DNA of 63,133 nucleotides, filler included. It is 15 parts of 15 records of this genome, joined end to end, with 100 filler letters (N's around TTAATTAATTAA, not from the genome) between each part and the next. Parts side by side here need not be neighbours in the genome. Positions count along the whole stretch, not along the records: positions 13,729 to 17,154 come from SRR7504441_20902; 14 more parts are not named here. One strand, written 5' to 3'. The translations under genes and the position numbers were made by a program. The number at the start of each line of letters is the position of its first letter. Position 1 is the stretch's first letter. The notes below the pieces were generated by a model. The model searched no databases. It was not told the DNA's origin and saw only the letters and a list, made by a program, of their open reading frames with translations. Shown piece by piece: positions 13,629 to 63,032 of the stretch.

Positions 13629-14297
13629 NNNNNNNNNNNNNNNNNNNNNNNNNNNNNNNNNNNNNNNNNNNNTTAATTAATTAANNNNNNNNNNNNNNNN
13701 NNNNNNNNNNNNNNNNNNNNNNNNNNNNACGGTAGAGTGCCTAGGTGCTGGCAGAGCTTGAGGTCCTGAACGAGGATAGCCGGGAATTCCTGCGGAAGGC
13801 GGTCGATGGCACCATTGAAAGCGTGGGTTGAGCTCATTTCCGAAGTACTTTATGATTATGAGAACGATTAGGTCTCCAACATGATGTATACTCACGCTAT
13901 ACTCACGCTCCTAGATTAATCCTAGATGCCCATCTAGTGTAATTTAATGTAATCAAGATAAACCGGGCCAATCTAGATCTACACTACTGTAGCGCTGTAG
14001 TAATACATTGTCATAAGACCGCCGATTGGTTCTTCGACACGGTGCGAGCGCGGAGCTCATGATTGTAATTAGATTGTAATCATGCACTGGGAGAACAATT
14101 ATCTATAGATCGAAACGAAATAGATGCAGTATTTAGCCGACAATCATTCAAATTAAACACGATGATGGAATACAACAGTTGGTAGATGACTCTAAAAGGG
14201 TTGCAATAGCACATCGACTATACTCGTACCGTAGTGCTCAACGCGAGCAACGCGTGTACATGATGGCTAGATGAATAGAAATGGCCAACCTAGTCTT

Positions 14298-14818
14298 TCA
14301 CTTGAACAAGAGGAAAACACTGTCGTAGGGCGGGACGGCCACGGCCATGGTCCCCTTGGCGGTGCCGGCGTCCTTGCGCTGCCAGATGTCGCGGACCTGG
14401 TAGGTCTTACCACCATCGAGGTCAAGCTTGGCCAAGTCCAGGGTGTGTTGCACCGGCTGCGAGCCCTGATTGATCACCAGGCATGCCTGCGAGTCCTCGG
14501 CCTGCTTCTTGCACCAGACCTGGCCCCGTTAGGGTTGTAATGGGTGGGCGGTGCACTCACAGTCTCTACCAACCGGCCTGGGTGCCCGGCCCACTTCTGG
14601 TTGACTGCGATGGCGTCTTCATTTGTGATTATGTCCAGGATCGGGTTGAGCTTGGCGTCGGTCAGCTCGAGCCCGAGGATGAGCGGGGCGGACACCACGC
14701 ACCAGGCACCGAAGTGGGCCCTGTTCCACGAATGGAATGTGTTGGGGGCCGGCTCAGCCACCCGCCCAACCTCCAGCATGTCCGGATAGGCCCAGCAGCC
14801 GGGCACCGAGAGCACGGG
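14298..14818 (-). pseudogene. GH27 alpha-galactosidase C-terminal piece
   Basis: PGCWAYPDMLEVG, RAHFGAWCVVSAPLILG, NEDAIAVNQ; after a 41-nt intron (14560-14520, GTGAGT..CTAAC..CAG) comes VWCKK..VRDIW..FK*. Confidence 0.8.
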
Positions 14819-14825
14819 CAGAGAA

Positions 14826-14974
14826 ATGGCGCTCAGGTTGATTGCCGCCTCGCTCGTTTTGGGCTCTGCTCAGGCCTGGGGACCACCGTCGGACTACGGC
14901 GGCCGCTTCAAGCCCGGCTGGAATGGCCTTGCTCGCACGCCGCCGCTTGGTTGGCGCTCGTGGAACGCGTTCGG
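14826..14974 (+). pseudogene. GH27 alpha-galactosidase N-terminal piece (inverted relative to the other pieces)
   Basis: Signal peptide + NGLARTPPLGWRSWNAFG, the canonical GH27 start, followed by unrelated sequence. Confidence 0.85.
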
Positions 14975-15311
14975 GGATGAGAGGCGCGTTAATCTGGACG
15001 AGCAATTTCGCGAGGCAGCTGGAGGGCCGGCACAGTACTAACAAGCGTCTGATAGATTAATTGAACTCTGTAGACTACGCACACGTACTACTCGGGGTTC
15101 ACTCCACGAGCTCGCTCTTTGGGATGCCTTTCAGGGTCTCGGTCTCGTCCACTTCATACCACTCGTCCAGCTGATGGCCCTCCCGTGGCTCTTGGGCGCC
15201 GGTATTTCTCTCTCTAATCCACGTGATGACCGCCTCGGCTGTCGTTTCGTCCACGCTCCGAAGCGTGAATGTCCCTTCCCTGTAGTTGTCCTTCTCACCG
15301 AAAACGTCATG

Positions 15312-15539
15312 CATCTTGGACGAGTCGGGGAAGTTGGCGTCGATGGTGGGCGTGCCGTCGGCTGTGTGCTGCGTGCCATTCACACCAGCTCCGCAACCCT
15401 CCCAGCCTTCATCCACCCCCACGCTGCAGTAGCCCAGGTCGCAGAGCGACACCGGGCTACTCCGCCCAGGCACTGTGCGATTCTTGGCCACCAAGGCCTC
15501 AGCAGCGAGCACCATCATGTCCTGAGTGATCCGGTTGCC
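15312..15539 (-). pseudogene. GH27 alpha-galactosidase second piece, embedded in an unrelated ORF
   Basis: GNRITQDMM...SLCDLGYCSVGVDEGW...NFPD, the segment that normally follows GWxSWN. Confidence 0.75.
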
Positions 15540-15979
15540 CCCGGCCGCCACCGACGTAGCGGACTCGCCGCCGCCAAGGGTGGATCCCAAGCCACTTGCA
15601 TCTCCGTCGTCGCCCCCGTGGGGAGGCGACAACGTCGCGGTCTGCGAAAGAAACGTCTCGTCTGGACTCGCCTGGATCGGGGACATGCGCTCGTCGCCCA
15701 CCACCACGATGGAGCTAGTACAGTAGCTCCGCCATAGACCGACGGCCCGAGGCCAAGCTTTTATTGGTATTGCTAGTACCTGTACCCGACAAAGACTTCA
15801 AATGCAGCATTTGCTCCCACTATGCTCCCACGGGGCGCGGCTTCTGCGCCGACGCGAGTCGTGGGAACACCCTAACACCCGAGTCTCTACAAGCACTCTA
15901 CCGGTATACGATTCGAAAGTGTGCTTGCACTGTGCTTGTAATCATACGAGCAGTAACGGATGAATTAGATCCGCGTGGC

Positions 15980-17047
15980 TCAAACCACTCGGTGTTGTAG
16001 CTCATCCAGATTGCCGCTCAGCACCGCTTTTACATTCAGATAGCACAGCCTGGCCACGTTATCGAAGAACTGCTGGGTCGAGGCCCCCAGGTGAGGCGTG
16101 CCCACCACATTCGGCCGTGCAATCAGACTATCGTTGGCCTCCGGTAGAGGCTCCTCCCAGAAAACATCCAGCCCGGCCCCGGCCAGCTTGCCGCTATCCA
16201 GTGCCGCCTCAAGTGCATCCCGGTCCACAATCCCTGCCCGTGCGCAGTTAATCAGCACTGCGCCTTGCTTCATTAGTTCGAACTCGGCAGGCCCGAGCAT
16301 GTTGGCAGTGGCCGGATTGAGCACGCAGTTGACGCTCACAAAGTCCGAATTGGCCAGCATCGCCTCAAACTGGGCCCGTGAGCTGCGCGAGTCTGTGCTG
16401 ATCACTTGCATTTTGAATCCAGCCTCGCATACCTCCCTCAGCAGCCTACCCGAGGCTCCCGTCCCGCCTATTATCCCCAGGGTGCTCCCACGCAGCTCCG
16501 AGCCCTCCGGGCCGCCCCAGCCGGCCGGCGGGTGCAGCGCCCGGTGCAGCCCCGGCTTGAGCCGCCGGGCCACCGCCAGCATGAGCATCACTATCGCCTC
16601 TGCTAACGCTGCCCCCACAACTGGGCGCCGCCGGCAGCGGCTGGGTTACCGTTGGCGTTGCTCCCGGGAGCGTTGCACACGGCCACGCCGCGGGCCGCGC
16701 ACTCCGGCATGCTGATCCTCGAGACGTCCACTGCCGGCTGGAACACCAGCCGCACCTCGGGCCCAGCGGCCTCCAGCGCCGGCCAGTCCAGCTTGGCCAT
16801 CGCCGGGACCAGCACGTGCGCCCCGGCGAGCGAATCGAGCTGCAGGCTCCCCCGTGGGCTATAACTGGCTGCGGGACACTCAGCCGAGGCCGCTGGGGCA
16901 GGCACCCGGGCGGATGCGGCAGTTGTGGGTGTGGATCTTGTCCAGCTGGGCCTGCATCAGCGGGAGCAGGAACTGCCAGCCGCTGTGCATCCATACGATG
17001 TCCACCGGCCCCGTACGGACCCCCCCGGCCAACAGCCGGCGGGCCAT
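15980..17047 (-). CDS. D-isomer-specific 2-hydroxyacid dehydrogenase, 3 exons
   Basis: VCNAPGSNANALAE, ELRGSTLGIIG, INCARAGIVD, GLDVFWEEP, TPHLGAST; introns 16905-16869 (37 nt) and 16649-16609 (41 nt). Confidence 0.92.
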
Positions 17048-17316
17048 TGGGTTACAACGGAATTATGTTGTAGCAACGAATGAAAACGAGGGTCACATGG
17101 GGTCATCGGATTTCTATTTAGTCTGTAGGCGGCCATGGTCATCTAGGGGCTGCTNNNNNNNNNNNNNNNNNNNNNNNNNNNNNNNNNNNNNNNNNNNNTT
17201 AATTAATTAANNNNNNNNNNNNNNNNNNNNNNNNNNNNNNNNNNNNNNNNNNNNCCGGTGCGCTTGACAGCTCAGTCAGTCGGCGGAGCATACGCATAGT
17301 TTGCTCGTCATCCCCG

Positions 17317-31046: not shown

Positions 31047-32251
31047 TCAATCTATATCGATGCCCTCCGGCAGCGGGCCCTGCTCCGGCTTCCGTGCGAA
31101 CTCATAGTAGCTACCCGTCGGCTTGCTGGCATTGAACGGCCTGCCATAGTTCTGCATTGCCAGCTTGTCGGTCTTTTGTATCTCGCCCGGGTTGATATCG
31201 ACCGGCTGGCCTGTCTCGAGGTCTCGCACCACGTCCGGTCCGTCCGTCATCTTGGTAACTTTGTATTTAAAGTCTACTGGGCTCCAGTTCTTGAGCAGAT
31301 TGTGGCTATCGTCGACCTGCTGCAGGAATTCGTTGTGGATCCGGTTGTAATACACCCCGCACTTGTTGAAATGCTCGATCACGTCCTCGCCCAGCGTACT
31401 GTCGTCGTACGGCAACGGACTGTCTGCCAGCAGAGCCTTCTCCATATACTCGTAAGTGAAGAACCTGCCATACCCAAAATGCTTCTTCTCGACACACATC
31501 GTGTACTGGAACGGCGTGAACGGCGGCAGCATGCACTGCATGTGCAGCTGCGACTGAGACGGCGGCAGGTTGAACCCGGCAACCAGATGTGCGCCCAGCT
31601 GCTCGTCTGTCAGGTTGCCATGGAGAATCCGGCGCCGATAGTCGGCGTTGGCTAGGAACTGCTCCTGCACCACCGCCCAGGCCTGTGCCCGCATCTGCCG
31701 GATGAGCAACAGCGCCTTGGCCGGCTGGGCCAGCAAATGGCGTAAGTCTGGGATGTACCGACTGGTGGGCACCACGTTGACGTGGCAGGGGCAGAGCGCC
31801 ATGAGGTCGTCGAAGATGATCAGTTCAGGGGACTGGTACCTGAGCGAGACAGTGAGCGGGAAGTTGCCCTTCTCGATCCCGTATATGAACCCCATGAAAA
31901 CGTTCTGAGTGGCAGTCACCTCCACCTGCCGCACCGGTCGGACCTGGCTCGAGGGGGGGGGGCAACCTGGGAGATATTGGATCCGCATTGATTGCACGCG
32001 ACCATGGTGTACGCGTTGGGCTTGCCGCAGTTGTGGCACACCCGCACTCGGTTCTTAAACTGTTGGGTGTCCGCCAGCGGGTGCTCAGCCACTTTGCCCT
32101 TGAACGGCGGGGCCGGCAGCCCGGGCCGCTGGTCCACGTGTGGGAACTCGCAGACCGCCCCGGCCAGGTACTCGAGCCCCACGCCGGTCGGCCGCCCATT
32201 GGACTGGAGCTCGTCCGGCTCGTTGCCGCAGCAGCAAAGTCGCTGCCCCAT
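31047..32251 (-). CDS. Zinc-ribbon + HIT-like (DcpS/aprataxin-type) protein, 2 exons
   Basis: MGQRLCCC N-terminus, CHNC..CNQC, FDDLMALCPCHVNVVP, GFNLPPSQSQLHMQ; intron 31966-31926 (41 nt). Confidence 0.65.
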
Positions 32252-32301
32252 TTCTTCAACGGCCGCACGATTGGAGGGGTGCTCCCTCTGATCGTAAGGC
32301 G

Positions 32302-33069
32302 ATGAGTGGGGCGCTGGACGTGGTGTTTCTGGACATCGACGGGGTGCTGCTCCCGCTGGACGAGGGCTGGGGCCCGACATGCCCCGAGTGCCATAACGGC
32401 CCCGACACCTCCCCGCCCTTATGGAGCTGCGACCGGTGCGGCGAGCATCACAGAGACAACTGTTCCAACGCCGTGAGCACCATGCCCAACGGCGACCAGC
32501 TCTGCCGGTCGTGCGCCGACGCCACCCCCAACAGCAGCAGCAAGCGCCCCCGCCGCGCGATCCAGCCCCAGCCCCAGCCGGCGGCCGATCGGGAGGACAG
32601 CGCACCGGATGGCCCAAAGGGGCTGCTGTTTCCGCGGGAGACGCTCGAGGCTCTGGACTGGCTGGTGGGGCGGACGGGGGCGGAGCTGGTGCTCTCTTCC
32701 ACCTGGCGGGTGCGGCAGGAATGGACTGAGAACATTCTGGATTGCTTTGAGGAATTCGGCGGTCGGCTGGCTCGGGTGCGCAAGTTTCGGCGCACCCCGC
32801 AGGCGGACGGGGTTCGGCAGTGGGAGATCGGGGCCTGGCTGGCAGCCAACCCCGGATTGCGGGCGTGGTTGGCGGTGGATGACCTGGACTTGGTTGGTGG
32901 GCGACTGAATGTCCGGCATAGTTCTCTATTCGACGGGCGGACTGTGAGGACGGCCCCGGAGATCGGGCTCACCATGGCGGACGCGATTGCCGGGGCGGGG
33001 CTGATGGCGGCCCAGGGGTGTGTGCTCCGGCCGGTGGATGATGGTGAGAGTCTCAAGTCTGTGGGATGA
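32302..33069 (+). CDS. HAD phosphatase, 'Swiss Army Knife' RNA-repair type (HAD_SAK_2-like), with Cys-rich insert
   Basis: VVFLDIDGVL, LVLSSTWR, RQWEIGAWL, WLAVDDLDL, GLT. Confidence 0.8.
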   Translation: MSGALDVVFLDIDGVLLPLDEGWGPTCPECHNGPDTSPPLWSCDRCGEHHRDNCSNAVSTMPNGDQLCRSCADATPNSSSKRPRRAIQPQPQPAADREDSAPDGPKGLLFPRETLEALDWLVGRTGAELVLSSTWRVRQEWTENILDCFEEFGGRLARVRKFRRTPQADGVRQWEIGAWLAANPGLRAWLAVDDLDLVGGRLNVRHSSLFDGRTVRTAPEIGLTMADAIAGAGLMAAQGCVLRPVDDGESLKSVG

Positions 33070-38511: not shown

Positions 38512-39075
38512 TCATCGTTTGGGGCACTTGCTGGGGCCCTGCACCTGGTCCGGCCGCTTTGTCTTACCGGTGCTCCAGCCCTGGTGCTTGGCCACTAGCG
38601 GGGCGTGCACCAGCTGCTTGATGCACTCCAGGCACCGGGCGCTCGCCCCTTTCCTCCACTGGCCTTTGGAGAACTTGTCCCTGCCAAGCTCGTGCCCGCA
38701 GTGGCTGCACTTCCGCATCTCCGGCGCGAGCGCCTCTGCTGCTGGCTCCGAAGCCTCGGCGGCAGGTTCGGGGGCCGCAGCCTCGGCAGCTGATTCGGGG
38801 GCGAAGCATCCCCCGACTTCGGCAATGACAGCCTGACCGCCTCCTGTCGCCTTGCTCGCGCGCCAATCCTCCACAGCTTTCCGGAACTCCGCCGCCGCTT
38901 CGGCCTCTCGGGCAGCGATGAACGCCGCGTCTTCTGCAGACATCCGGTGCGTGGTGCCGGCCTCGCTTACCGTTGCCTCCGGCGCCTCAGCAGCAGACTC
39001 GGGTGCCACAGTCTCCGCAGCTGCCCCGGGTGCCTCCGCAGCTGGCTCCGCGGCTGCCCCGGACGCCTCCGCCAT
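38512..39075 (-). CDS. A/E/P-rich protein with Stc1-type zinc finger
   Basis: RKCSHCGHELGRDKFSKGQWRKGASARCLEC matches C-x2-C...FSxxQ...C-x2-C. Confidence 0.7.
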   Translation of the reverse strand: MAEASGAAAEPAAEAPGAAAETVAPESAAEAPEATVSEAGTTHRMSAEDAAFIAAREAEAAAEFRKAVEDWRASKATGGGQAVIAEVGGCFAPESAAEAAAPEPAAEASEPAAEALAPEMRKCSHCGHELGRDKFSKGQWRKGASARCLECIKQLVHAPLVAKHQGWSTGKTKRPDQVQGPSKCPKR

Positions 39076-39183
39076 CTGGCCCTTTGTGAGCGCCGCCTGT
39101 CTCAGCGTGCGGCCGCCGGTGCTCGCTCGAGTAACGGAATTCTCGAGTCCTTGCACCGGCCGCTCCGTCGTGAGGGCGTGTGG

Positions 39184-39996
39184 ATGCTGGGCGGATGGTC
39201 AGCCGAGCAACCCTCGGGTCAGCAGGAGGCCGGCACCAAGCTACTCGGGCTGCTGACCGGGGTGTCGTATGTGAGCGGGATCGACTATTTCAGAACGATC
39301 AACAAGCGCACCGCCGAGCTGGTGCCGACCGACCGCTGCCGGCGCATGCCCAAGAACGCCCGGTTGGCGCTGGCCTGCGTGGATTGCGACGTGTATGTGG
39401 ACCTGCTGGAGCGGGGCGACCTGGAGGCCTGCGCGGCCTACCTGATCAGGGACGGGGTGAGCCGGCTGGTGGCAGCCGGGGCTGAGGTGCTGGTGATTGC
39501 GAGCAACACGGCCCACCTAGTTTGCGAGCCGGTCAGCCGCCAGTTCCCCGAGCTGCAAGTGCTGCACATCGCCGACACCACCGCGGCGGCGGTCAAGGCC
39601 GCCGGGATGACACGGGTTGGGCTGCTAGGGACCCAGCCTACCATGCAGGAGGGCAGCTGGCTCATTCGGCGGCTGGAGGCTCACGGGCTCGGAGTGGTGG
39701 TGCCGTCGGACGAGGCTGACCGCAGGCGGTGCTACGACATCATATGCCAGGAGCTATCGTTTGACGTGCTCACGGAAGCATCGCGGGGGTTCTTTGTTGG
39801 ATTGGCCAGGAAGATGGCCGCGGAGCAGGCTGCGGAGGGCGTGGTGCTGGGATGTACGGAGATAGAGCTGCTCGTACGGCCGGAAGACATCCCAGAGTGC
39901 CCGCTGTTCCAATCGGCAGCGCTGCACATGGAAGCAGCAGTGCAGGTGCATCTCGGGCTAGTGAATTTGACTCAGCTCGCCCCTAGTACAACTTGA
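39184..39996 (+). CDS. Aspartate/glutamate racemase family (RacX/YgeA-like)
   Basis: LGLLTGVSYVSGIDYF, IASNTAH, LHIADTTA, VGLLGTQPTM, VVLGCTEI. Confidence 0.9.
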   Translation: MLGGWSAEQPSGQQEAGTKLLGLLTGVSYVSGIDYFRTINKRTAELVPTDRCRRMPKNARLALACVDCDVYVDLLERGDLEACAAYLIRDGVSRLVAAGAEVLVIASNTAHLVCEPVSRQFPELQVLHIADTTAAAVKAAGMTRVGLLGTQPTMQEGSWLIRRLEAHGLGVVVPSDEADRRRCYDIICQELSFDVLTEASRGFFVGLARKMAAEQAAEGVVLGCTEIELLVRPEDIPECPLFQSAALHMEAAVQVHLGLVNLTQLAPSTT

Positions 39997-43174: not shown

Positions 43175-43190
43175 CCGAGCCCCCCAATTT

Positions 43191-43200
43191 TAACGGATTT
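43191..43200 (+). promoter_or_regulatory. Representative YAACGG putative core-promoter motif in a 43-bp divergent spacer
   Basis: TTTTAACGGATTTT here and at 53199-53212; the same core occurs in 10 of 11 divergent spacers (see findings). Confidence 0.65.
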
Positions 43201-43217
43201 CTTACCCGCTCGACTCG

Positions 43218-43765
43218 ATGCCAGAGGATAACCAGTCCTCGGACGGGGAGGACGTCCCTCCGGACCTGAGCGACGAGGAGGAGGGCGCTGCAGCCCGGCC
43301 GGACGCTCTCACCGCGGCGGTCGAGCTCTGGTGCGGCTCGCCCGAGTTCGAGAACACCTGGAGCGAATGCTTCGACCGGTGGGCCGGGCCGGCGGCACAG
43401 GCTAACCGGCCGGCCAGCGCCATGCAGGGGCAGGGCTCGCACGGCCGGCACATATCGCTCGAGGTGGTGATCGCCACTGTGCAGAAGGTGCACGAGCAGC
43501 TGCCGCCGGGTGCCCGCCCACCCGCCACCACCCCGAGCCTGCTGCAGAGCTGGCCGGGTGCCTGCCGGAGCCGGACGCCGAGTTCGTCCGCACAGCGCTG
43601 CAGCAGGTGCGGAGTGACGTCTGGGAGGGTGGGGAGGGCGGGCAGGTGCTGCCGCAGCTGCTGAAAGAAGGCATCGACGAGAATGACGTGCCCACCGCGG
43701 TGCAGGTGGTGGCCTTACAACTGGCCGCGGCGGTGGAGCTGCTGGCCGAAGCCGGGGCGTGCTAG
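43218..43765 (+). CDS. Small hypothetical protein, 3 exons
   Basis: Acidic N-terminus; two approx. 38-nt GT-AG introns lead to TAG at 43763-43765. Confidence 0.5.
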
Positions 43766-47748: not shown

Positions 47749-50700
47749 CGCATGATTCGTACGAGTGCTTTGTGCATCCCGACTGTTGGAGCTGCCATGC
47801 GCGTGGCGGATATGCTGACAGGCTGAGCGATATCGAGACGTGACATCAGTGCGAACCATGACAGCGACATACAGGTCGATCGACACCATTTTGCTTCCGA
47901 CGCATCGAGTGGAGTGGGACTGTATTTCTTTTTGATCGAGCATTGGTGAACGTACTGGAAGTGCCCCAACGGGCAGGTGCTCATCGAGGAATGCTGCCAC
48001 GTCGGCGTTCTGATCGACGGTGAACACAGACTCGTTCTCGGTGTTGCGGGTGTGCCCCACGTTGAGCCCGAGATAACGACGGGTCTGTCCTTTTTCCAGA
48101 ATGCCCCAAAACTTCAAGCCGAAGCGTCCGTTAGCCTTTTCGCAGATGGCAGTGAGGTGCCGGCGCGGGCCTCGGGCGATGAAGTCATCCACGTTGATGA
48201 CCAGCTTGACTTTGGTGGTCGGGTGCCGGTACATGCAGAGGTCGTTCTGCGACTGGAGGTATCCCTCCCCCAGCAGGAAGTCGCGCCAGGTCTCGTACCA
48301 GTTCATAGAGGCGATCCGCTGCCCGTACACTGGCCCGAGCTGCTTGAAGACTCGGAGTCTGGCCTTGCGGTGTGCTTTGAGCGCCACCCATCTGCCCGGG
48401 CTGCCCGGTGCGTAGCCCTTGCCTTTTGTGAACGCTGAGCTGACGTCTCCGAATGCCAGGTCGTCGTCGCCCTCGGCCTGCAGCGCCAGCACGAGCTTCA
48501 CTGACGAGGCCATGGGCGTCGGGCTGTCCAGCGGCTGGCCCTCCGTCCAGCTGAGCGGCTCCGTGTCCCCGCGGACTATCCAGCGAAACTTCATCCGCTC
48601 AGGCTTGGGCTCAGGGTTGAATCTTGTGCGCGGTACCCGCTGTTCCTTCAGCACCTGTTCGCGTTCGGCCCCGAATAACTCGATGTACCGGGTGCCTAGC
48701 AGCGCGTTCATCTCGGCCTTGTATGCGTCTAGCGCTTGTTGGACGGAGCACTTGAGCTGGTGGCGCTCCATCAGTTCTATTACTGCGAGTAGATCTTCGT
48801 CCATTAGAATGGAATTAACCATTAGTTTGTGCTGCTTGTGGTAGTCCTTGACTGCATCGGTCGCACCGTGATTCAACAAGAAGGCTTCGGGCTCCCACGT
48901 GGCCTGCCTCTTTCCGTAGTGCTTCCATTTTACCAAGTATTGGTACGTTCTTTTCCCTCTCGTACGCCGTTGATCGGGTTTGTGATCGAGTATTTCGTCG
49001 AGCTCATAGACATCTATCGGCACAGCGTTCTTGTGGAACCTGTGCACGAAGGTTTCGAACTTGGCCACGCTCGCGTTCTCGGCCGGCACGTAGTGTAGTG
49101 GGAACTTTGTGTTGTTCACTTTGACTGTGTCTACTTCAACGGCTGGCTCAATGTCCCAAATCTTGCGGTGCTGATTCCAACGGATCTCGCAAACGCGATG
49201 GGCGCCTGGCGTCATGAGCGCGCGGCCGGCGTAGATGCCGATGGCTGCGCGGGAGGCGAGCTTGCCGGCTCGCAGCTCGGCTGGGATGTAGTATTTGACT
49301 TCAGCTCCGAAGATGTGGGCGTCCTCGCCGTCGACGTCGAAGGGTATGCCCCCTGCGCGCTGCACTGGCGTGAGGCTGCCGGCGTAGGGCGTGTTGTCCA
49401 TGACGTCATTGACGTGGCGGAGGGCCTCGTCCCACACCTCCTCGTACCTGCCTGTTCCCCCCGTTGCTGTGAGCAGTGTGCTTCGCAGGGCCGACTGCAC
49501 CACTCGGTTTCGGTTCTCGATCTTTGAGTTGCCATTGTGGTCGTACCCCACTGTGGACGTGGCGAGCAGGTTGCGCCCCTTGAGGTGGCCAAGGAGTTGG
49601 TCACCGAGCAGGGTCGGGTCGCAATCGACGTGGACTCGTGCCAGGCGGCGGTGCTCGGGGTCAAATTTCAGCAGGAGACGGTACTCTGCCTCTTTGAAAG
49701 CCTTGAGTGTGTCGGGTCCAGACCGCGATTTTACCGGCTCGTAGTGGGCGGCGTCCTGATCGCCTCGCTGGTCCTTGTATGCTGTGAGTCCCAGCGCCGC
49801 CACATTGCCTGACGCTGTGGCTGGCAGGCCTACCAGGAAGTCCAGGCTGGCCACGAGACCTTCACTGGAGCCTATGGTCGGCTGGTCTCGTGCTTTGCGG
49901 GTAGCGGCGTCTCGCTGCATATTGGCTTGTGTGCATATCTCACAGTCGGGATCCTTGGGCCTGTGACATCGTTTTCTGTGTTTCTGCAACCGATGAAACA
50001 CCCTTTTTCTCATTGCAGTGATAGCTTTTGTCATAGATGCATCCACTTCCGTAGATATCATCGATTTCTTTACCGTGGGCAGTCTAACCCGCAGTCCATC
50101 CGGGATGCATTCGTATGCCTCTCCGTTTCTTTCGAGAGCTTGAACTGTCGGTCCATCGACGTACGTGTAGCCCGCTGCTCTCAATGTCGCCAATGAACAG
50201 ATTGAATCCTTGGCTTTTGGTGCGATTGGCGCATCCAGGATGTCCACGAGCGGCGTCGTCATGTCGGCCACATGTGTGGCTTTGGACGATCCAGAAACGG
50301 TTCCCAAGCTGATCGGTATTGCGAGCTTTCTGACATTGGTAAAGTGCTTGCTGTCTAACGGACTCAGCACGTCTGTTTCGGTACATGAGTCTATCAATGG
50401 CCCAGACGCGGGGCCGGGAGGGGAGTACCTTCGCGCTCTAGCGAGATCCTCCGCTCGGCGGGTCAGCTCCGTCGGTGCCTTCCTCTTCATCTGCGCCCTG
50501 GTGGTCGCGGCAACCCTGGCGGGGCCCCCACCGCTGGTGTCAGGTCCCTGATCCATGAGCGTGGCGAGCAGCTGCTGCTGAGATGCGGCGATCGTCTCGG
50601 TGAGCTGCGCCTGCTGCTCGGCCAGGCGCTCCTCGAGGGCGCGCTCCAGGCTGCGCTGGGTCCGGTTCATTTGTGTTGCTACAATTTGATGGACCTGCGG

Positions 50701-51675
50701 CTCGGCCGGCTTGGTGTGCAGGTGGGGGCACTGGTCCCCCCTTGGGCAGGTGCCGTACTTGGCGAACGTGCGGCATAGCTCCCGGCCCCGCTGCTGTGGC
50801 TGGCCGGAGCGGCGCCAGCGGCCGGACTGCGACTGCGCTGAGCCCTTTCCGCCGCCCTGCCGGTTGTTCCTCTCGGTGTTGTTCCTCTGGGGCGGTGTTT
50901 CGGTGGATGCCGAGCTCGGGTGCAGGTTGTTGGATTCTTTCCTCGCCGTTGACAGCATCTCTGCGAGCGCCTTGCGGTCCTGGTTGCCGGCGGCCCACTG
51001 TGCCATCAGTGAATGTACGAGGAAGGTGTGTGGCTGGACAATTCTTACCAGCGCTTCAACTCCAACTTTGACTTCAAACTGGCGGTGGAGGCGCACTTCG
51101 TCCAGGTGCTTTCGCAGCGTAGAGAGCCGCTGCTTGACAGCGCCTGCCTTGTCGGTGGCTTGCATCGTAGTTATCTTGCTTAGATCACGATGAAATGTTT
51201 CTATCGGAGTGTTCGCCGTGCCTTGAACGACATTTTGAAACAGTCTTACGCCCGACTCGGTCTCGCCGCCTCCGTAGGAATCGTGTTGGCCGGACGTCAT
51301 AGTCCCGCGCAGCCGGGAGTAGAGCGCCTTGTCCACGGGCTCCATTGGTCCCAAGATCAAGGGCCCAACATCAACATACGGGTCCTTGAGCAAAGTCTCG
51401 ATGAGAATAACGGACGAGTCTTTGTTCGTGCTGGCGAGGCGCTGGATGTGCTCCTTGGCCCACGCGCGGAGCTGTGCTTGGGTGGGCAGGTCTTCCGAGC
51501 CGCCGGCGAGCATGCCGACAGGTACGGCGTCCGTCATGGCCGTGGCCATGGCTGTGCCCAGGACCGTCGCCGTGGCGTCGGTCAGGCTCGATGGGGGGCC
51601 CGTTACTGGCTGGCCGGCCCGCTCCCGGCTGCCCAGGTACTGCCCGAGGGCTTGGGCATGGCCGGGGAGCATCTT
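47749..51675 (-). mobile_element. Ty1/copia-order LTR retrotransposon gag-pol (both ends truncated) with chromodomain
   Basis: 1323-aa ORF: Gag with CCCH finger, protease LIDS, integrase (H..H..CEIC; SLDF, HVDCD, NSKIENRNR), chromodomain, then RT (FGDVSSAF, VYGQRIASMNWY, INVDDF). The PR-IN-RT order is copia-type. Confidence 0.92.
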
Positions 51676-51830: not shown

Positions 51831-53166
51831 TTACCCGCATATTGAGATTATGACTTCGACAAGCTTGACTGGATCTACTCTAGGCGAAGACTCGGGCGTC
51901 ACTAGCGTCGTGTAGACCATTTCCACCCCCATCGCTTCAGCAGCCGCTGCGCATTCCAACACGGCACTCTCGCCCCCATATAACTCTGGATCGGTGTCTA
52001 GTATCACGTGCGTCAGCAATGCTGTGCACGAAGCGGGGGGGCAGCACTTTTCACGCATGCAGCCGACTAAGCAGCCTACCAGCTCTGCCAGCGACCAGCC
52101 TTGGCACTCAGGGTCGGGGTAGGTGTTCGGAATATAGATCTTGGGGCACCGGTTCCTGCCCTGACCGATGGGCTGCCGCACAGCCAGGGTATACACACCG
52201 GGCGATGCCTGAGCTAATCCCGTCTATTATGAGGTTGGGCAACACGGAGGTGAAGAAACTACCCCTGTGAGCCTTACCGTCACACCCTGCCGGTCACTGG
52301 GCGCACATGGGGTAAACAATCAGCTCGGCCGACAGAATCAAATCGCAAACCGAGTCGGAAGCCGCGACGCTAGCCTCCAGCCCTGACCCGTCAGGGTTGC
52401 ACAGCTCTATGCTCTCGAGCCGGCTAGCTGAGCCAGCCGTAATCAGGTGCTGCCCGACTATTCGCTGGCCGCTGGCTAGCCGGGCGGCCAGGTGCAGGTG
52501 TCGGTTGCACCCGGCTCGCACCAGCCCGCGCACTTCTAACAGCTTAGAAAAGAGGAAGATGGTCGCATCTAGGTTCTTCTGGTTGGCCAAGAACCCGCCA
52601 ACCAGCACCAGATTGCCCACACTGGCACCGGCTAGCGGGAACTCGGGCGGGAGCGCCTCGCGCACCAACTGCAGGTGCACCTGGACCAGGTCGCACATGG
52701 GCGGCCCAACGGATTTGATCATCGGGTGGCTGCCCATGGCTATGGCGTCCAGCACTGCCTCCGGAGCCGGGCCGGCCAGGCGCAGATTCAGCAGCTCGTA
52801 CAGCCGGGACGAGCGATGGTCCGATTTGTCGGCCAGCGCCAGCAGCCGGTTACGTATGTCACCTACCGCCGGGATCTGGAACGCTTTGCGCAGCGAGGCG
52901 GACGAGCCGCCGCTGTCGAACGGCGTGACGATGTGGATTGAGTGGTGGGTGTACTGTGTGAGTCGCCGGCTGGTCTCTTTGAGCGCAGTCCCCCCGCTGA
53001 AGAAGAGACAGCGGGGCCCCAGTTCGGGCACCCGGAGCGCCCGTAGGATGCGCGGCGGGTCGGGGATGCGCACCGCCCGGCTGATCACCAGAGCTTCGCA
53101 CGCCTGCTCCGTCGGGGCGCGGAGCCGGGGCGAGCCGAGCGGCGAGAGCTGCGACGGACTGGCCAT
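51831..53166 (-). CDS. CofD/YvcK(UPF0052)-family protein, GAK-system CofD-like type, 3 exons
   Basis: PELGPRCLFFSGGTAL, HSIHIVTPFDSGGSS..LRKAF..PAVGDIRNRL, ASVGNL, YPMGSFFTS, CPKIYIPN; introns 52306-52265 and 52198-52156. Confidence 0.85.
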
Positions 53167-53226
53167 GCCTCTGTCACCCCACCCACCAGATCACGCGTTT
53201 TTAACGGATTTTTGTCCAACTGCCAT

Positions 53227-60911: not shown

Positions 60912-60977
60912 CGCAGCGAGACTGGTGAGCTGCAGTGCCGTTACTTTTTCCGGTGCTCGAGACGACCGCCTGGCGCG

Positions 60978-63032
60978 ATGGAGATGGGCCACGATGGGTC
61001 TCTCCGCCCGTCTGAGGTGGCCAGTCCGCCAGAGGGACTGGTGCACGGTGGGCCGCTCCGGCCGGATCTGGTGGAGCGGATCCCGCCGGCCGACTTGAAC
61101 GTGCTGCGGTTCATTCTTTCGTACCTGCAGCGGAGCCCGGCGGCGGTGCCGCTGTACGTAGTGGGCGGGTACGTGCGGGATCTTCTGCTGGGCAAGGTGC
61201 CCGACGACCTGGACCTCTCGTTCTGCCTGCGAGACGGCCCGGCCGAGCTCACGATGGCCAGCCTGTTCGGGCTCGGGCAGCCGGCCGACGGGGTGCCGGG
61301 CGGGCTGGCGGGGCACGCCGAGCAATGCCCCGAGTACGGAGTGGCCAGCGTGGAGCCGGTGCTGATGCAGTCGGACGAGTCCAAGAACAAGATGCTCGAC
61401 ACGGCCAAGGTGGTGCTCTCGCTGGCTGGGGGAAAGTTCGAGGTGGATCTGATGCCGACCATCGGAGAGGAGACCTACGACCAAGCCAACCGGGTGCCCG
61501 TCCGCAACCAGCGAGGCACCCCGCGCCAGGACGCGCTGCGGCGGGACCTGACCGTCGGGGCGCTGATGCTCGAGGTCTCGCTCCTCCCCGACGGCCAGCT
61601 CCAGTTCACTCTGCTGGACTTCTTTGGCGGGCTTGCGGACCTGCTCCCGCCACCCGGGAAGCCCGGAGTGCTGCGGTCGCCATTCCCGCCGGAGCGGGAG
61701 CCGGGCGAGCTGCTCGGGGAGGTGCTCGAGGGCGAGGCCGAGCTGGGGCTGGCCCGGGCGGTCGGGCTAGTCGGGAGCTGCCAGGCTATCTGGTGGGTTA
61801 AGGTGCTTAGGGACGACCCGCTCCGGGCGGTCCGGGCGCTCAGGTTCGAAGCCAAACTGGAGTTTGAGCTGGACCAGAGCTTCTGGCAGGCGGTGGCCTT
61901 CGGGCTCGAGCCGCTCAAGCTCAAGGTGGCCGGCTCGCGCAAGATGCAGGAAATGTGCAAGCTGGTCAAACTCGGGAGAGACAAACTGAAGAAATTCATG
62001 CTCGTCGCATTCGACAGGCGGTTCGTGGCCGGACCTGACGGCCAGACCGCATGCCTGGCCCCCGGCCTGTTTGGAGGGAACACAGCGAGTGGGGTGGCGC
62101 AGTTCCCTGCGGACGTCACTGGGTTTGACCGGGCAAGGTTTGAGAGGTCGGTGCTCGCTGTTCCTTCGATCGCTCACAGCGGGGACGCGCTGTTCGCCGA
62201 GTATCTGGTGGCGGCGCTGCTGGCCTGCTCGTTCGAGCCAGCCGGGTCTGCGGGCGAGCAGGCGGGCGAGCCCGGGCCGTCTGTCTGCCCGCAGTGGGCG
62301 CTGGTGTGCAATGGGATCCAGGCTTCCAACCCGATGCGCGACACCGGCAGCTTCCTCCTCGAGACGGAGTCACAACTCCGGGCCGCGCACGCCGCCCCGC
62401 CCATGCCGCACCACCTGGTCATGGCCGAGGCGCTCCGCACGGCCGGACACCACGAGGCCTCGCCGGAGCGTGTCGCCGGGCTGGTGCAGGTGTGGTCGTC
62501 GCTGGCATGGCCGACTGGCAACCACAGGCAAGTGACCCTGCCCAAAGGCTGGAACTCGACCGGCCGGCCAGCCGAGCAGTCGCTCGAGCCAGCCGCAGTC
62601 GAACTTGTCGGTTGCGAGCTCGAGTTGCTCCGGCAGCGGCAGCAGTACGTAGTGGCGCTTCTGCATGAGTCGAGCCCAGCCACAGCCGAGGCCGCAAGCG
62701 CCGCGCTCGAGCTGCTGGGCGAGCCGCTCCCGCTCCGGCTGACCGGCAAGTGCTTTGGCAAGGGCAAGGGCGAGGGCGCGCTCGGCAGGGTCCCGATGCA
62801 CATGCGGTCTGCGTTCTTGGCTTGGATGGAAGTGGCGTACCGGCTGCTCGACCCAGAGTTTAGCACAGGCCCGGTGGAGCAGCCGGAGGCCTTGGCGCGG
62901 TTTGGAGCCGAGCACGGGGGCTTGGTCGAGGGGCTGGTCGAGGCAATGTACGCTGGCCCGGACACGCTCAGGCCTGAATACCAAAAACCGAGCCCCGCCG
63001 GAACTAAGAAAAAAAGAGCTAAGAAAACGTGA
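60978..63032 (+). CDS. Class II tRNA nucleotidyltransferase / poly(A) polymerase family protein
   Basis: YVVGGYVRDLLLG, DDLDL, FEVDL, DALRRDLTVGAL, LLDFFGGLADL, DDPLRAVRALRF; basic C-terminal NLS-like tail. Confidence 0.9.
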   Translation: MEMGHDGSLRPSEVASPPEGLVHGGPLRPDLVERIPPADLNVLRFILSYLQRSPAAVPLYVVGGYVRDLLLGKVPDDLDLSFCLRDGPAELTMASLFGLGQPADGVPGGLAGHAEQCPEYGVASVEPVLMQSDESKNKMLDTAKVVLSLAGGKFEVDLMPTIGEETYDQANRVPVRNQRGTPRQDALRRDLTVGALMLEVSLLPDGQLQFTLLDFFGGLADLLPPPGKPGVLRSPFPPEREPGELLGEVLEGEAELGLARAVGLVGSCQAIWWVKVLRDDPLRAVRALRFEAKLEFELDQSFWQAVAFGLEPLKLKVAGSRKMQEMCKLVKLGRDKLKKFMLVAFDRRFVAGPDGQTACLAPGLFGGNTASGVAQFPADVTGFDRARFERSVLAVPSIAHSGDALFAEYLVAALLACSFEPAGSAGEQAGEPGPSVCPQWALVCNGIQASNPMRDTGSFLLETESQLRAAHAAPPMPHHLVMAEALRTAGHHEASPERVAGLVQVWSSLAWPTGNHRQVTLPKGWNSTGRPAEQSLEPAAVELVGCELELLRQRQQYVVALLHESSPATAEAASAALELLGEPLPLRLTGKCFGKGKGEGALGRVPMHMRSAFLAWMEVAYRLLDPEFSTGPVEQPEALARFGAEHGGLVEGLVEAMYAGPDTLRPEYQKPSPAGTKKKRAKKT

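What the first reader, a model, noticed from the sequence alone, without database searches (positions are those of the whole stretch)
14298..15707. GH27 alpha-galactosidase shattered into permuted and inverted pieces
Seen: piece 1 (signal peptide..GWRSWNAFG) is on + at 14826-14974. Piece 2 (GNRITQD..DEGW..NFPD) is on - at 15539-15312. The C-terminal piece is on - at 14818-14298 and abuts the ATG of piece 1 back-to-back. Pieces 1 and 2 are directly consecutive in the protein (WNAFG|NRITQ), and their junction flanks are similar (GCGTTCGGGG vs GCGGCCGGGG, 8/10, shared CGGGG), with no GT/AG at either. Both are fused in frame to unrelated coding-like sequence that ends at a normal-looking convergent spacer (15042-15098). 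The central part with the catalytic aspartates is absent from this contig. Inference: options are a real complex microhomology-mediated rearrangement or gene-fragment capture, ciliate-like scrambling or trans-splicing, or an amplification/assembly chimera.
Basis: partly seen in the sequence, partly recalled or inferred. Interest (0 to 1): 0.7.

Follow-up and report, generated by a model that had tools for sequence, protein, structure and literature searches.

The report
Shattered, rejoined alpha-galactosidase gene copy
A sugar-splitting enzyme gene in a draft assembly of a marine microbial eukaryote is cut into four shuffled pieces with its active centre missing; it looks like a dead, one-off broken copy (made in the cell or in the laboratory), not a programmed scrambled gene.

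Summary
The pieces are real, and there is more breakage than reported. Four GH27 fragments lie on a 3.4-kb contig, out of order and on both strands. All 36 relatives with three or more pieces carry them in normal order. One filler is the 3' two-thirds of a separate small gene. Flipping 14975-15537 restores the conserved AFGNR exactly, with a 2-base overlap; the shared CGGGG is out of register. Other overlaps are 1 to about 5 bases. A depth-2 contig from a poly(A) seawater run is identical to the 3' end but leaves the window exactly at the fifth junction, so a longer form exists elsewhere. No contig bridged any junction, and coverage was too thin to test them. Best reading: a one-off, non-functional break-and-rejoin of one gene copy, made in the cell (0.5) or during amplification or assembly (0.4). 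Programmed scrambling or trans-splicing is unlikely (0.03). The scan had already noted about six similarly broken loci in this assembly, several flagellar (unchecked notes); that pattern is the only part worth pursuing.

The parts
14253..14297 (-). 3' flank (probable 3' UTR) of the GH27 gene, in its native place
   Evidence: RNA-run contig X4 record 16 lies on 14253-14448 with 0 other letters, 196 of 202 letters laid
14298..14525 (-). P4b: GH27 C-terminal beta-sandwich domain with TGA stop
   Evidence: Pfam PF17801 52.9 bits, cut-off 22.9; 81% identical to P0020 residues 501-577
14525..14526 (.). Junction J5: frameshifting deletion of about 208 codons (an inserted domain); overlap at least 2, perhaps 4-5 bases
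   Evidence: P4a-P4b gap is 148-243 residues in 23 of 25 relatives, 10 and 66 in the other two; X4 record 17 is identical on 14429-14526 and then leaves, with 53 letters unlaid
14520..14560 (-). 41-nt GT..AG stretch with a CTAAC across J5; removing it would restore the P4a-P4b frame (chance, or an older viable short allele)
   Evidence: its translation matches coding sequence of relatives, and X4 record 17 neither splices nor retains it
14526..14813 (-). P4a: last third of the GH27 catalytic barrel, starting mid-domain without an ATG
   Evidence: 88% identical to P0020 residues 197-292; PF16499 positions 219-283, 20.3 bits, below the cut-off of 23
14813..14814 (.). Junction J1: back-to-back join of P4a with the short leader of P1
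   Evidence: blastn matches to loci end at 14812-14813; 5 of 5 loci displayed read CCG-CT here and the window does not
14814..14974 (+). P1: 12-nt leader, ATG at 14826, hydrophobic N-terminus, through W-R-S-W-N-A-F-G
   Evidence: 78% identical to P0014 residues 16-51; signal peptide judged by eye, no predictor run
14975..15537 (.). 563-bp segment whose flip restores the P1-P2 join exactly (junctions J2 and J4, crossover in GG)
14975..15041 (+). X3': 21 codons and TAA, in frame after P1; possibly the 3' end of another gene
   Evidence: codon score weakly best in this frame (+2.4 bits); no relative identified
15042..15098 (.). Convergent spacer, 46% GC
   Evidence: all frames score negative
15099..15311 (-). 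Z3': last 70 codons and TGA of a separate gene of about 110 residues; its 5' third is absent; junction J3 at 15311/2, overlap 1 base
   Evidence: 93% DNA identity to L001, 70% to P0092; no Pfam family; Atlas hits below 0.9, lipocalin-like, a lead only
15312..15539 (-). P2: GH27 residues about 55-130
   Evidence: 82 relatives at E <= 0.001 among 224 candidates, best 82% over the piece
15540..15707 (-). Y5': low-complexity coding-like stretch (first ATG at 15686), in frame before P2; possibly the 5' part of the gene that ends in X3'
   Evidence: codon score weakly best in this frame (+2.2 bits); no relative at longer or near lengths
15760..15761 (.). Possible sixth junction, or an intergenic polymorphism
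   Evidence: DNA-run contig X1 record 6 matches 15631-15760 (1 other letter, 5-base gap), then 26 letters are unlaid
15980..16956 (-). Neighbouring D-2-hydroxyacid dehydrogenase gene, domains in normal order
   Evidence: PF02826 and PF00389; environmental contigs lie on it end to end with 1-4 other letters per 151

Best explanation
This is one copy of an ordinary, secreted-type GH27 alpha-galactosidase locus that was broken at several points within a few kilobases and rejoined by end joining inside a cell. The result is a very recent, non-functional allele. Shown: the four GH27 pieces, the two lost middles, the loss of both catalytic motifs, the foreign 3' gene piece Z3', and the exact reuse of both sides of the P1|P2 break. 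Inferred: three steps suffice if the parent order was GH27 (minus strand), gene Z head to head with it, then gene YX. (i) About 620 bp of the inserted domain was deleted (J5). (ii) The P1-P2 block was inverted, with loss of about 385 bp on one side and of the promoter and Z 5' end on the other (J1, J3). (iii) A loss-free 563-bp inversion followed (J2, J4). A single shattering with random rejoining fits equally well. No enzyme can be made from it. An intact copy exists in the population, and perhaps as the other allele of the same cell.
For: 36 of 36 relatives that match three or more pieces have them in order. Overlaps inferred from relatives are 1 base (J3), 2 bases (J2/J4) and 2 to 5 bases (J5). 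That fits the 0-6 bp of end-joined clusters (PMC7058534, passages) and is mostly below the 5-8 nt typical of MDA chimeras (PMC9984789, passages). Both ends of the P1|P2 break are reused with no residue lost or gained, which two independent polymerase jumps would rarely do (inference). Each piece occurs once, and a self-comparison of the 63-kb window shows no fold-back duplication. Five junctions in 1.0 kb (six in 1.24 kb) is far denser than the one MDA chimera per 2-100 kb quoted in PMC9984789. A k-mer assembler cannot join sequences on a 1-2 base overlap, so the junctions were probably in sequenced molecules (inference). Precedent for structure-first decay: dynein pseudogenes of Emiliania huxleyi, with large deletions confirmed by PCR and regions still above 97% identical (PMC4438323, passages).
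Against: There is no independent support for any junction, and one contig of identical sequence disagrees with J5. The pieces show no decay: 0 stops in 366 codons, 70 of 70 highly conserved columns kept (P1 had no such columns to test), 0 differences in 274 nt against X4. An artefact predicts exactly this. Single-cell MDA short-read assemblies keep many misjoins: 1,607 in one 57%-complete Chlamydomonas SPAdes assembly (bioRxiv 10.64898/2026.06.11.730069, passages). The proposed parent order is untested: in L001 the Z gene has other neighbours on both sides, and no relative shows that Y5' and X3' are one gene. The overlaps are inferred from relatives, not from the parent allele, and the published MDA overlap range may be cut off at its short end by detection rules (my caution, not checked).
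Confidence: 0.5

Rival explanations
1. Laboratory or assembly chimera. Repeated template switching during whole-genome amplification (or rejoining of damaged template) made a multi-junction molecule early, it was amplified, and the assembler kept it. The organism's gene is intact.
For: No decay in any piece. An identical RNA-run contig leaves at J5, and a DNA-run contig leaves at 15760. The assembly is made of 3-6 kb contigs. MDA chimeras join sites less than 10 kb apart, are mostly inverted and are unique to a sample (PMC9984789); early chimeras reach high depth and survive assembly (bioRxiv 2026.06.11.730069). Unchecked notes on this assembly report normal order in environmental data at other broken loci.
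Against: Overlaps of 1-2 bases at three junctions; exact reuse of both sides of one break; tight clustering of junctions; no fold-back duplications in the window. Whether the library was amplified at all is not known. Function-blind chimeras would not favour flagellar genes, which make up three of the six or so other broken loci noted (unchecked).
Confidence: 0.4
2. Gene-fragment capture: a mobile element or a repair patch collected pieces of several genes and inserted them here.
For: Pieces of at least two, perhaps three genes sit side by side. Gene Z has different neighbours in L001.
Against: No terminal inverted repeat or target duplication: the best inverted repeats in the contig are 13-22 nt and imperfect. 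P4b keeps its own stop and 3' flank at the contig's native-looking left side. No Z relative in viral contigs (0 of 3 candidate stretches); no relative of the fused ORF in prokaryote genomes (0 of 42).
Confidence: 0.05
3. Programmed scrambling or trans-splicing. This is a germline-like form that is unscrambled at DNA or RNA level into the normal gene, and the missing pieces lie elsewhere.
For: The P1|P2 boundary is exact and carries GG on both sides. The pieces are undecayed. A normal-order form seems to exist. Other 'scrambled' loci were noted in this assembly (unchecked).
Against: In ciliates the pointer is present at both consecutive segment ends, and scrambled pointers are the longer ones (PMC9797194, passages); here the in-register repeat is 2 bases. 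J1 and J5 join GH27 pieces directly, with nothing to eliminate. There is no GT/AG at the P1 or P2 ends. The other genes recognisable in the window are in normal order. The coding DNA is about 63% GC with TAA and TGA used as stops.
Confidence: 0.03

Closest known systems
Chromothripsis / chromoanagenesis (PMC7058534; passages read)
   Same: Clustered breakpoints, mixed deletion-type and inversion-type joins, pieces kept once or lost, overlaps of 0-6 bp.
   Different: The scale here is about 1-3 kb with pieces of 160-340 bp, in a microbial eukaryote. Copy-number oscillation and loss of heterozygosity could not be tested, and an artefact is not excluded.
MDA chimeras in single-cell or low-input assemblies (PMC9984789, passages; bioRxiv 10.64898/2026.06.11.730069, passages)
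   Same: Local, largely inverted joins of undecayed sequence that are not seen in other samples.
   Different: Reported overlaps are mostly 5-8 nt and reported density is one per 2-100 kb; here overlaps are 1 to about 5 bases, five or six joins fall within 1.24 kb, and one break is reused on both sides.
Erosion of haploid-phase (flagellar) genes in asexual Emiliania huxleyi strains (PMC4438323; passages read; supplements not seen)
   Same: Genes knocked out by structural change while the remaining sequence stays close to intact copies in other strains.
   Different: The passages describe mainly large deletions in dynein genes, confirmed by PCR. Here there are inversions and permutation at sub-kilobase scale, the organism is not identified, and nothing shows that this GH27 is stage-specific.
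Scrambled germline genes of Oxytricha, Tetmemena and Euplotes woodruffi (PMC9797194; passages read)
   Same: Coding segments out of order and inverted, with a short repeat at consecutive ends.
   Different: The repeat is 2 bases in register, two joins have no eliminated spacer, over half of the gene is absent from the contig, and the fillers are pieces of other genes.
GH27 alpha-galactosidases (rice 1uas, E 3.8e-18 for the closest relative P0020)
   Same: The parent gene belongs to a marine-protist GH27 clade of about 520-670 residues with PF16499 and PF17801.
   Different: Most of the clade carries an extra domain of about 150-240 residues before the beta-sandwich. The copy here lacks that domain and the catalytic middle, so it cannot be an enzyme.

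Membership tests
GH27 alpha-galactosidase (functional member) | Melibiase_2 catalytic barrel, complete and continuous | tested here: not met
   Only profile positions 219-283 of 284 hit (20.3 bits, cut-off 23); P1 and P2 alone give no GH27 Pfam hit; about 128 codons are missing
GH27 alpha-galactosidase (functional member) | Catalytic Asp pair after strands 4 and 6 (PMC1249566); their assignment to the K-x-D-G-C and R-x-S-G-D motifs is recalled, and fits the alignment | tested here: not met
   Each motif is in 28 of 29 full-length relatives and in 0 of the six frames of the window
GH27 alpha-galactosidase (functional member) | C-terminal beta-sandwich PF17801 | tested here: met
   52.9 bits, cut-off 22.9
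Ciliate-type scrambled gene | Pointer repeat at the end of one segment and the start of the next, longer for scrambled joins | tested here: not met
   The in-register repeat is 2 bases; the 5-base CGGGG register adds a Gly seen in 0 of 53 relatives
Ciliate-type scrambled gene | Segments separated by eliminated spacer DNA | tested here: not met
   J1 and J5 join GH27 pieces directly; the filler after P2 is coding sequence of another gene
Ciliate-type scrambled gene | All segments present somewhere in the germline genome; separate somatic genome | not testable with these tools
   No whole genome is held
Trans-spliced split gene | Splice donor after piece 1 and acceptor before piece 2 | tested here: not met
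   The flanks at J2 and J4 carry no GT or AG at the boundary
Chromothripsis-like event | Clustered breakpoints with mixed join types | tested here: met
   Five junctions in 14525-15540; one deletion-type, one back-to-back, three to foreign pieces
Chromothripsis-like event | Overlaps of about 0-6 bp | tested here: met
   1, 2 and 2-5 bases inferred from relatives and one RNA-run contig; J1 cannot be bounded
Chromothripsis-like event | Two copy-number states, loss of heterozygosity, presence in the cell's own DNA | not testable with these tools
   No source reads: no run holds more than 0.08 of the sampled words
MDA chimera | Overlap mostly 5-8 nt | tested here: not met
   See above; inferred from relatives, not from the parent allele
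MDA chimera | Junction confined to one amplified library | tested here: inconclusive
   None of the listed contigs from 4 runs bridges a junction, but same-strain cover of J1-J4 was absent
Fragment-capturing transposon (Pack-MULE or Helitron type; features recalled) | Terminal repeats or target-site duplication around the captured pieces | tested here: not met
   Only short, imperfect repeats in the contig; Helitron ends were not specifically searched

The most novel reading that the evidence does not exclude
A wild protist lineage is losing dispensable (flagellar or life-stage-specific) genes through kilobase-scale shattering and end joining, a micro-chromothripsis with balanced inversions of about 0.55 kb, and this GH27 locus is one of at least seven such loci in the assembly. 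The basis beyond this locus is unchecked notes: CFAP47, WDR47, a radial-spoke-like gene, a WD40-EF-hand gene, a HECT ligase and a surface-protein gene, with flipped or permuted pieces of about 517, 543, 550 and 552 bp against 563 bp here.
Probability: 0.25. Interest if true: 0.65.

Novelty: new member of a known kind. Interest (0 to 1): 0.32.

Why it matters
On its own this is a dead gene copy or an artefact, and it matters little. It matters as one more case of a pattern in this assembly. If the junctions are in the cells' DNA, they would show chromothripsis-like gene loss at kilobase scale in an uncultured marine eukaryote, perhaps linked to loss of a flagellated stage as in Emiliania. If they are artefacts, they show that multi-junction, in-frame, loss-free chimeras survive in draft protist assemblies and create false fusion ORFs (here a 202-codon Y5'-P2-Z3' frame) and false 'scrambled genes'.

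Tried and rejected
No whole genome was available, so an intact paralogue and the missing middles could not be sought outside the window. Sequencing runs: 13 listed from 12 studies, each with 0.05-0.08 of 354 sampled words. I laid 4 of the 13. There were no joints and no listed contig bridged a junction, but same-strain cover of J1-J4 was absent, so this is no evidence either way. 20 piece rows and 34 loose-end rows were not displayed, including the 53 unlaid letters of X4 record 17, so I could not confirm that they encode the missing domain. That record has depth 2, and DNA can be present in an RNA library. Searches for a parent of Y5' found nothing at longer or near lengths; X3' was not searched on its own. 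The fused ORF gave no useful PDB hit. A codon-based strand-switch scan missed J1, the positive control, so it gives no background rate; the other tight switches it flagged mostly looked like compact gene pairs on reading. Pfam control: 27 of 136 ORFs had a hit (136 of 149 selected from 462 ORFs of 70 codons or more; 13 left out because they lay in or next to the finding or were covered), and none was visibly out of order. This control is weak. The idea that J5 is an ordinary 41-nt intron was rejected as the main reading: the stretch translates like relatives' coding sequence, and X4 record 17 runs 7 bases into it and then leaves without a joint. It is kept as unexplained, because a frame-restoring GT..AG with a branch motif arose in 2.4% of 20,000 simulated frameshifting deletions, and in 0.045% with the strict donor that I chose after seeing it. 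A shared restriction site at the junctions was looked for by eye and not seen. That all three fusions are in frame is not taken as evidence: about 1 in 9 by chance. No look-alike notes in other genomes. Paper searches for chimeric rearrangement in protist single-cell genomes and for small-scale chromothripsis in unicells (listings only) showed no matching report; they are too narrow to claim absence from print.

Full report
Setting. The window is 15 contigs of 3.1-6.1 kb joined by 100-base N linkers; the finding lies on the contig 13729-17154. The genes are eukaryotic, GC-rich and intron-poor, with candidate introns of about 45 nt in two neighbours (read by eye). No whole genome is held. I did not identify the organism; unchecked notes on the same assembly call it a marine protist and in places telonemid-like or choanoflagellate-like, so the assembly may be mixed.

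The pieces. A search with piece 2 returned 82 relatives among 224 candidates. The full-length ones are about 520-670 residues with PF16499 and PF17801, and the closest, P0020, matches rice alpha-galactosidase 1uas at E 3.8e-18. Aligning relatives to the window gives four GH27 pieces: P1 (+, 14826-14974, the true N-terminus, 78% to P0014), P2 (-, 15539-15312), P4a (-, 14812-14526, 88% to P0020) and P4b (-, 14525-14298, 81% to P0020). All 36 relatives that match three or more pieces have them in order. The P1-P2 gap is 0 residues in 41 of 57 relatives. The P2-P4a gap is 128 residues in 23 of 38 and never less. The P4a-P4b gap is 148-243 residues in 23 of 25. So two middles are lost, not one. Each catalytic-type motif is in 28 of 29 full-length relatives and nowhere in the window (catalytic Asp after strands 4 and 6 from PMC1249566, passages; the mapping to these motifs is recalled). 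This copy cannot encode an enzyme.

The fillers. After P2 the frame runs into Z3' (15311-15099). It is 70% identical to protein P0092 and 93% identical at DNA level to locus L001 (24 loci from 101 candidate stretches). In L001 it is the last two-thirds of a free-standing 110-codon gene, whose 5' third is absent from the window. Z has no Pfam family. Y5' (15707-15540) and X3' (14975-15041) have no relatives found and only weak codon support.

The junctions. J2 and J4 are the two ends of one inversion. Flipping 14975-15537 gives A-F-G-N-R, the commonest form in relatives (32 of 64 scorable; spacing identical in 53 of 53), and puts Y5' in frame with X3'. The crossover lies in GG. At J3, relatives read ATG-GT in 5 of 5 loci displayed and L001 gives the Z side, so the overlap is one G. 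At J5 the overlap is at least 2 and up to 4-5 bases. At J1 only one parent can be inferred. The pieces between junctions are 161-337 bp. Each occurs once, and the window has no fold-back duplication. The pieces are undecayed: no stop in 366 codons, 70 of 70 highly conserved columns kept.

Independent data. Thirteen marine runs from 12 studies hold 0.05-0.08 of the contig's sampled words; four were laid. In the poly(A) run X4, records 16 and 17 cover 14253-14526 with no difference. Record 17 stops matching at 14526, exactly at J5, with 53 letters left over, and no joint was reported. So sequence of the same type continues differently there, as a long form of the gene would. The caveats are depth 2, unseen loose letters and possible DNA in an RNA library. 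Contigs of other species stop at 14974, and one in X2 continues in P2-like letters. X2 record 12 matches both P1 (+) and P2 (-) in the colinear sense. X1 record 6 leaves at 15760, which may be a sixth junction. No listed contig bridges any junction, but same-strain cover of J1-J4 was absent, so the junctions are neither confirmed nor refuted.

Mechanism. If the parent order was GH27 on the minus strand, Z head to head with it, then YX and the dehydrogenase, three events give the contig: a deletion (J5), an inversion with flanking losses (J1, J3) and a loss-free inversion (J2, J4). One shattering with random rejoining is equivalent. This order is inference, and L001 does not show it. Short overlaps, exact reuse of both sides of one break and tight clustering favour break and end joining in a cell (PMC7058534). 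They sit less well with MDA mispriming, with its 5-8 nt overlaps and one event per 2-100 kb (PMC9984789). Against that, nothing has decayed, nothing independent shows a junction, and amplified single-cell assemblies keep many misjoins (bioRxiv 10.64898/2026.06.11.730069). I put 0.5 on the cell and 0.4 on the laboratory or assembler. Programmed scrambling fails on pointers, spacers and splice signals (PMC9797194). Element capture lacks terminal repeats.

An oddity. J5 lies inside a 41-nt GT..AG stretch with CTAAC whose removal would restore the frame. No such stretch occurs in 18.4 kb of control coding DNA, and 2.4% of simulated frameshifting deletions produce a looser version. It could mark an older, viable short allele. 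But it translates like the relatives' coding sequence, and the one informative contig neither splices nor retains it.

Wider pattern. Earlier notes on this assembly (none checked by me) describe CFAP47 in 11-13 pieces, WDR47 cut at four points, and clean inversions of about 0.55 kb in a HECT gene, a radial-spoke-like gene and a surface-protein gene; most report normal order in environmental data. Each was judged a one-off. Together with the 563-bp flip here they suggest one recurrent process. The share of flagellar genes recalls the erosion of haploid-phase genes in Emiliania huxleyi (PMC4438323, passages; its supplements, which describe the individual dynein loci, were not seen and may hold closer parallels). 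These notes are leads, not support, and readers may simply notice breaks more easily in well-known long genes.

Verdict. It is a non-functional, one-off derivative of an ordinary GH27 gene, of a known kind whether biological or technical. Interest 0.32; the genome-wide reading would deserve 0.65 if shown, at a probability of about 0.25.

Noticed in passing
window 47749-51675 (-): A 1,309-codon open frame filling a whole contig, with a CCCH zinc finger, a chromodomain (residues 890-947) and then a copia-type reverse transcriptase (RVT_2, 1050-1209): a chromodomain ahead of the RT in a copia-like element.
   Followed up: no
window 14520-14560 (-): 41-nt intron-like stretch across the frameshifting junction, which would restore the frame if spliced.
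   Followed up: partly
window about 23200, 39170-39190, 43190-43220, 60940-60990: Very compact head-to-head gene pairs, with little or no sequence between the two coding stretches.
   Followed up: partly
window 15631-15760: A DNA-run contig lacks 5 bases at 15717, inside a small palindrome, and leaves the window at 15760.
   Followed up: partly
L001:2729-3058: Small gene Z (110 codons) of no Pfam family, with a 104-residue relative P0092; Atlas leads point weakly to lipocalin-like folds (scores 0.85-0.87).
   Followed up: partly
P0020 residues 293-500 and relatives: Most of this marine-protist GH27 clade carries a 150-240 residue insertion before the beta-sandwich; in some members PF00652 is listed, in most the insertion has no Pfam family.
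   Followed up: no
window 52297-53190 (-), 38794-39993 (+), 32104-33066 (+): Genes of families better known from prokaryotes in this eukaryotic assembly: CofD-like, Asp/Glu racemase, HAD_SAK_2.
   Followed up: no
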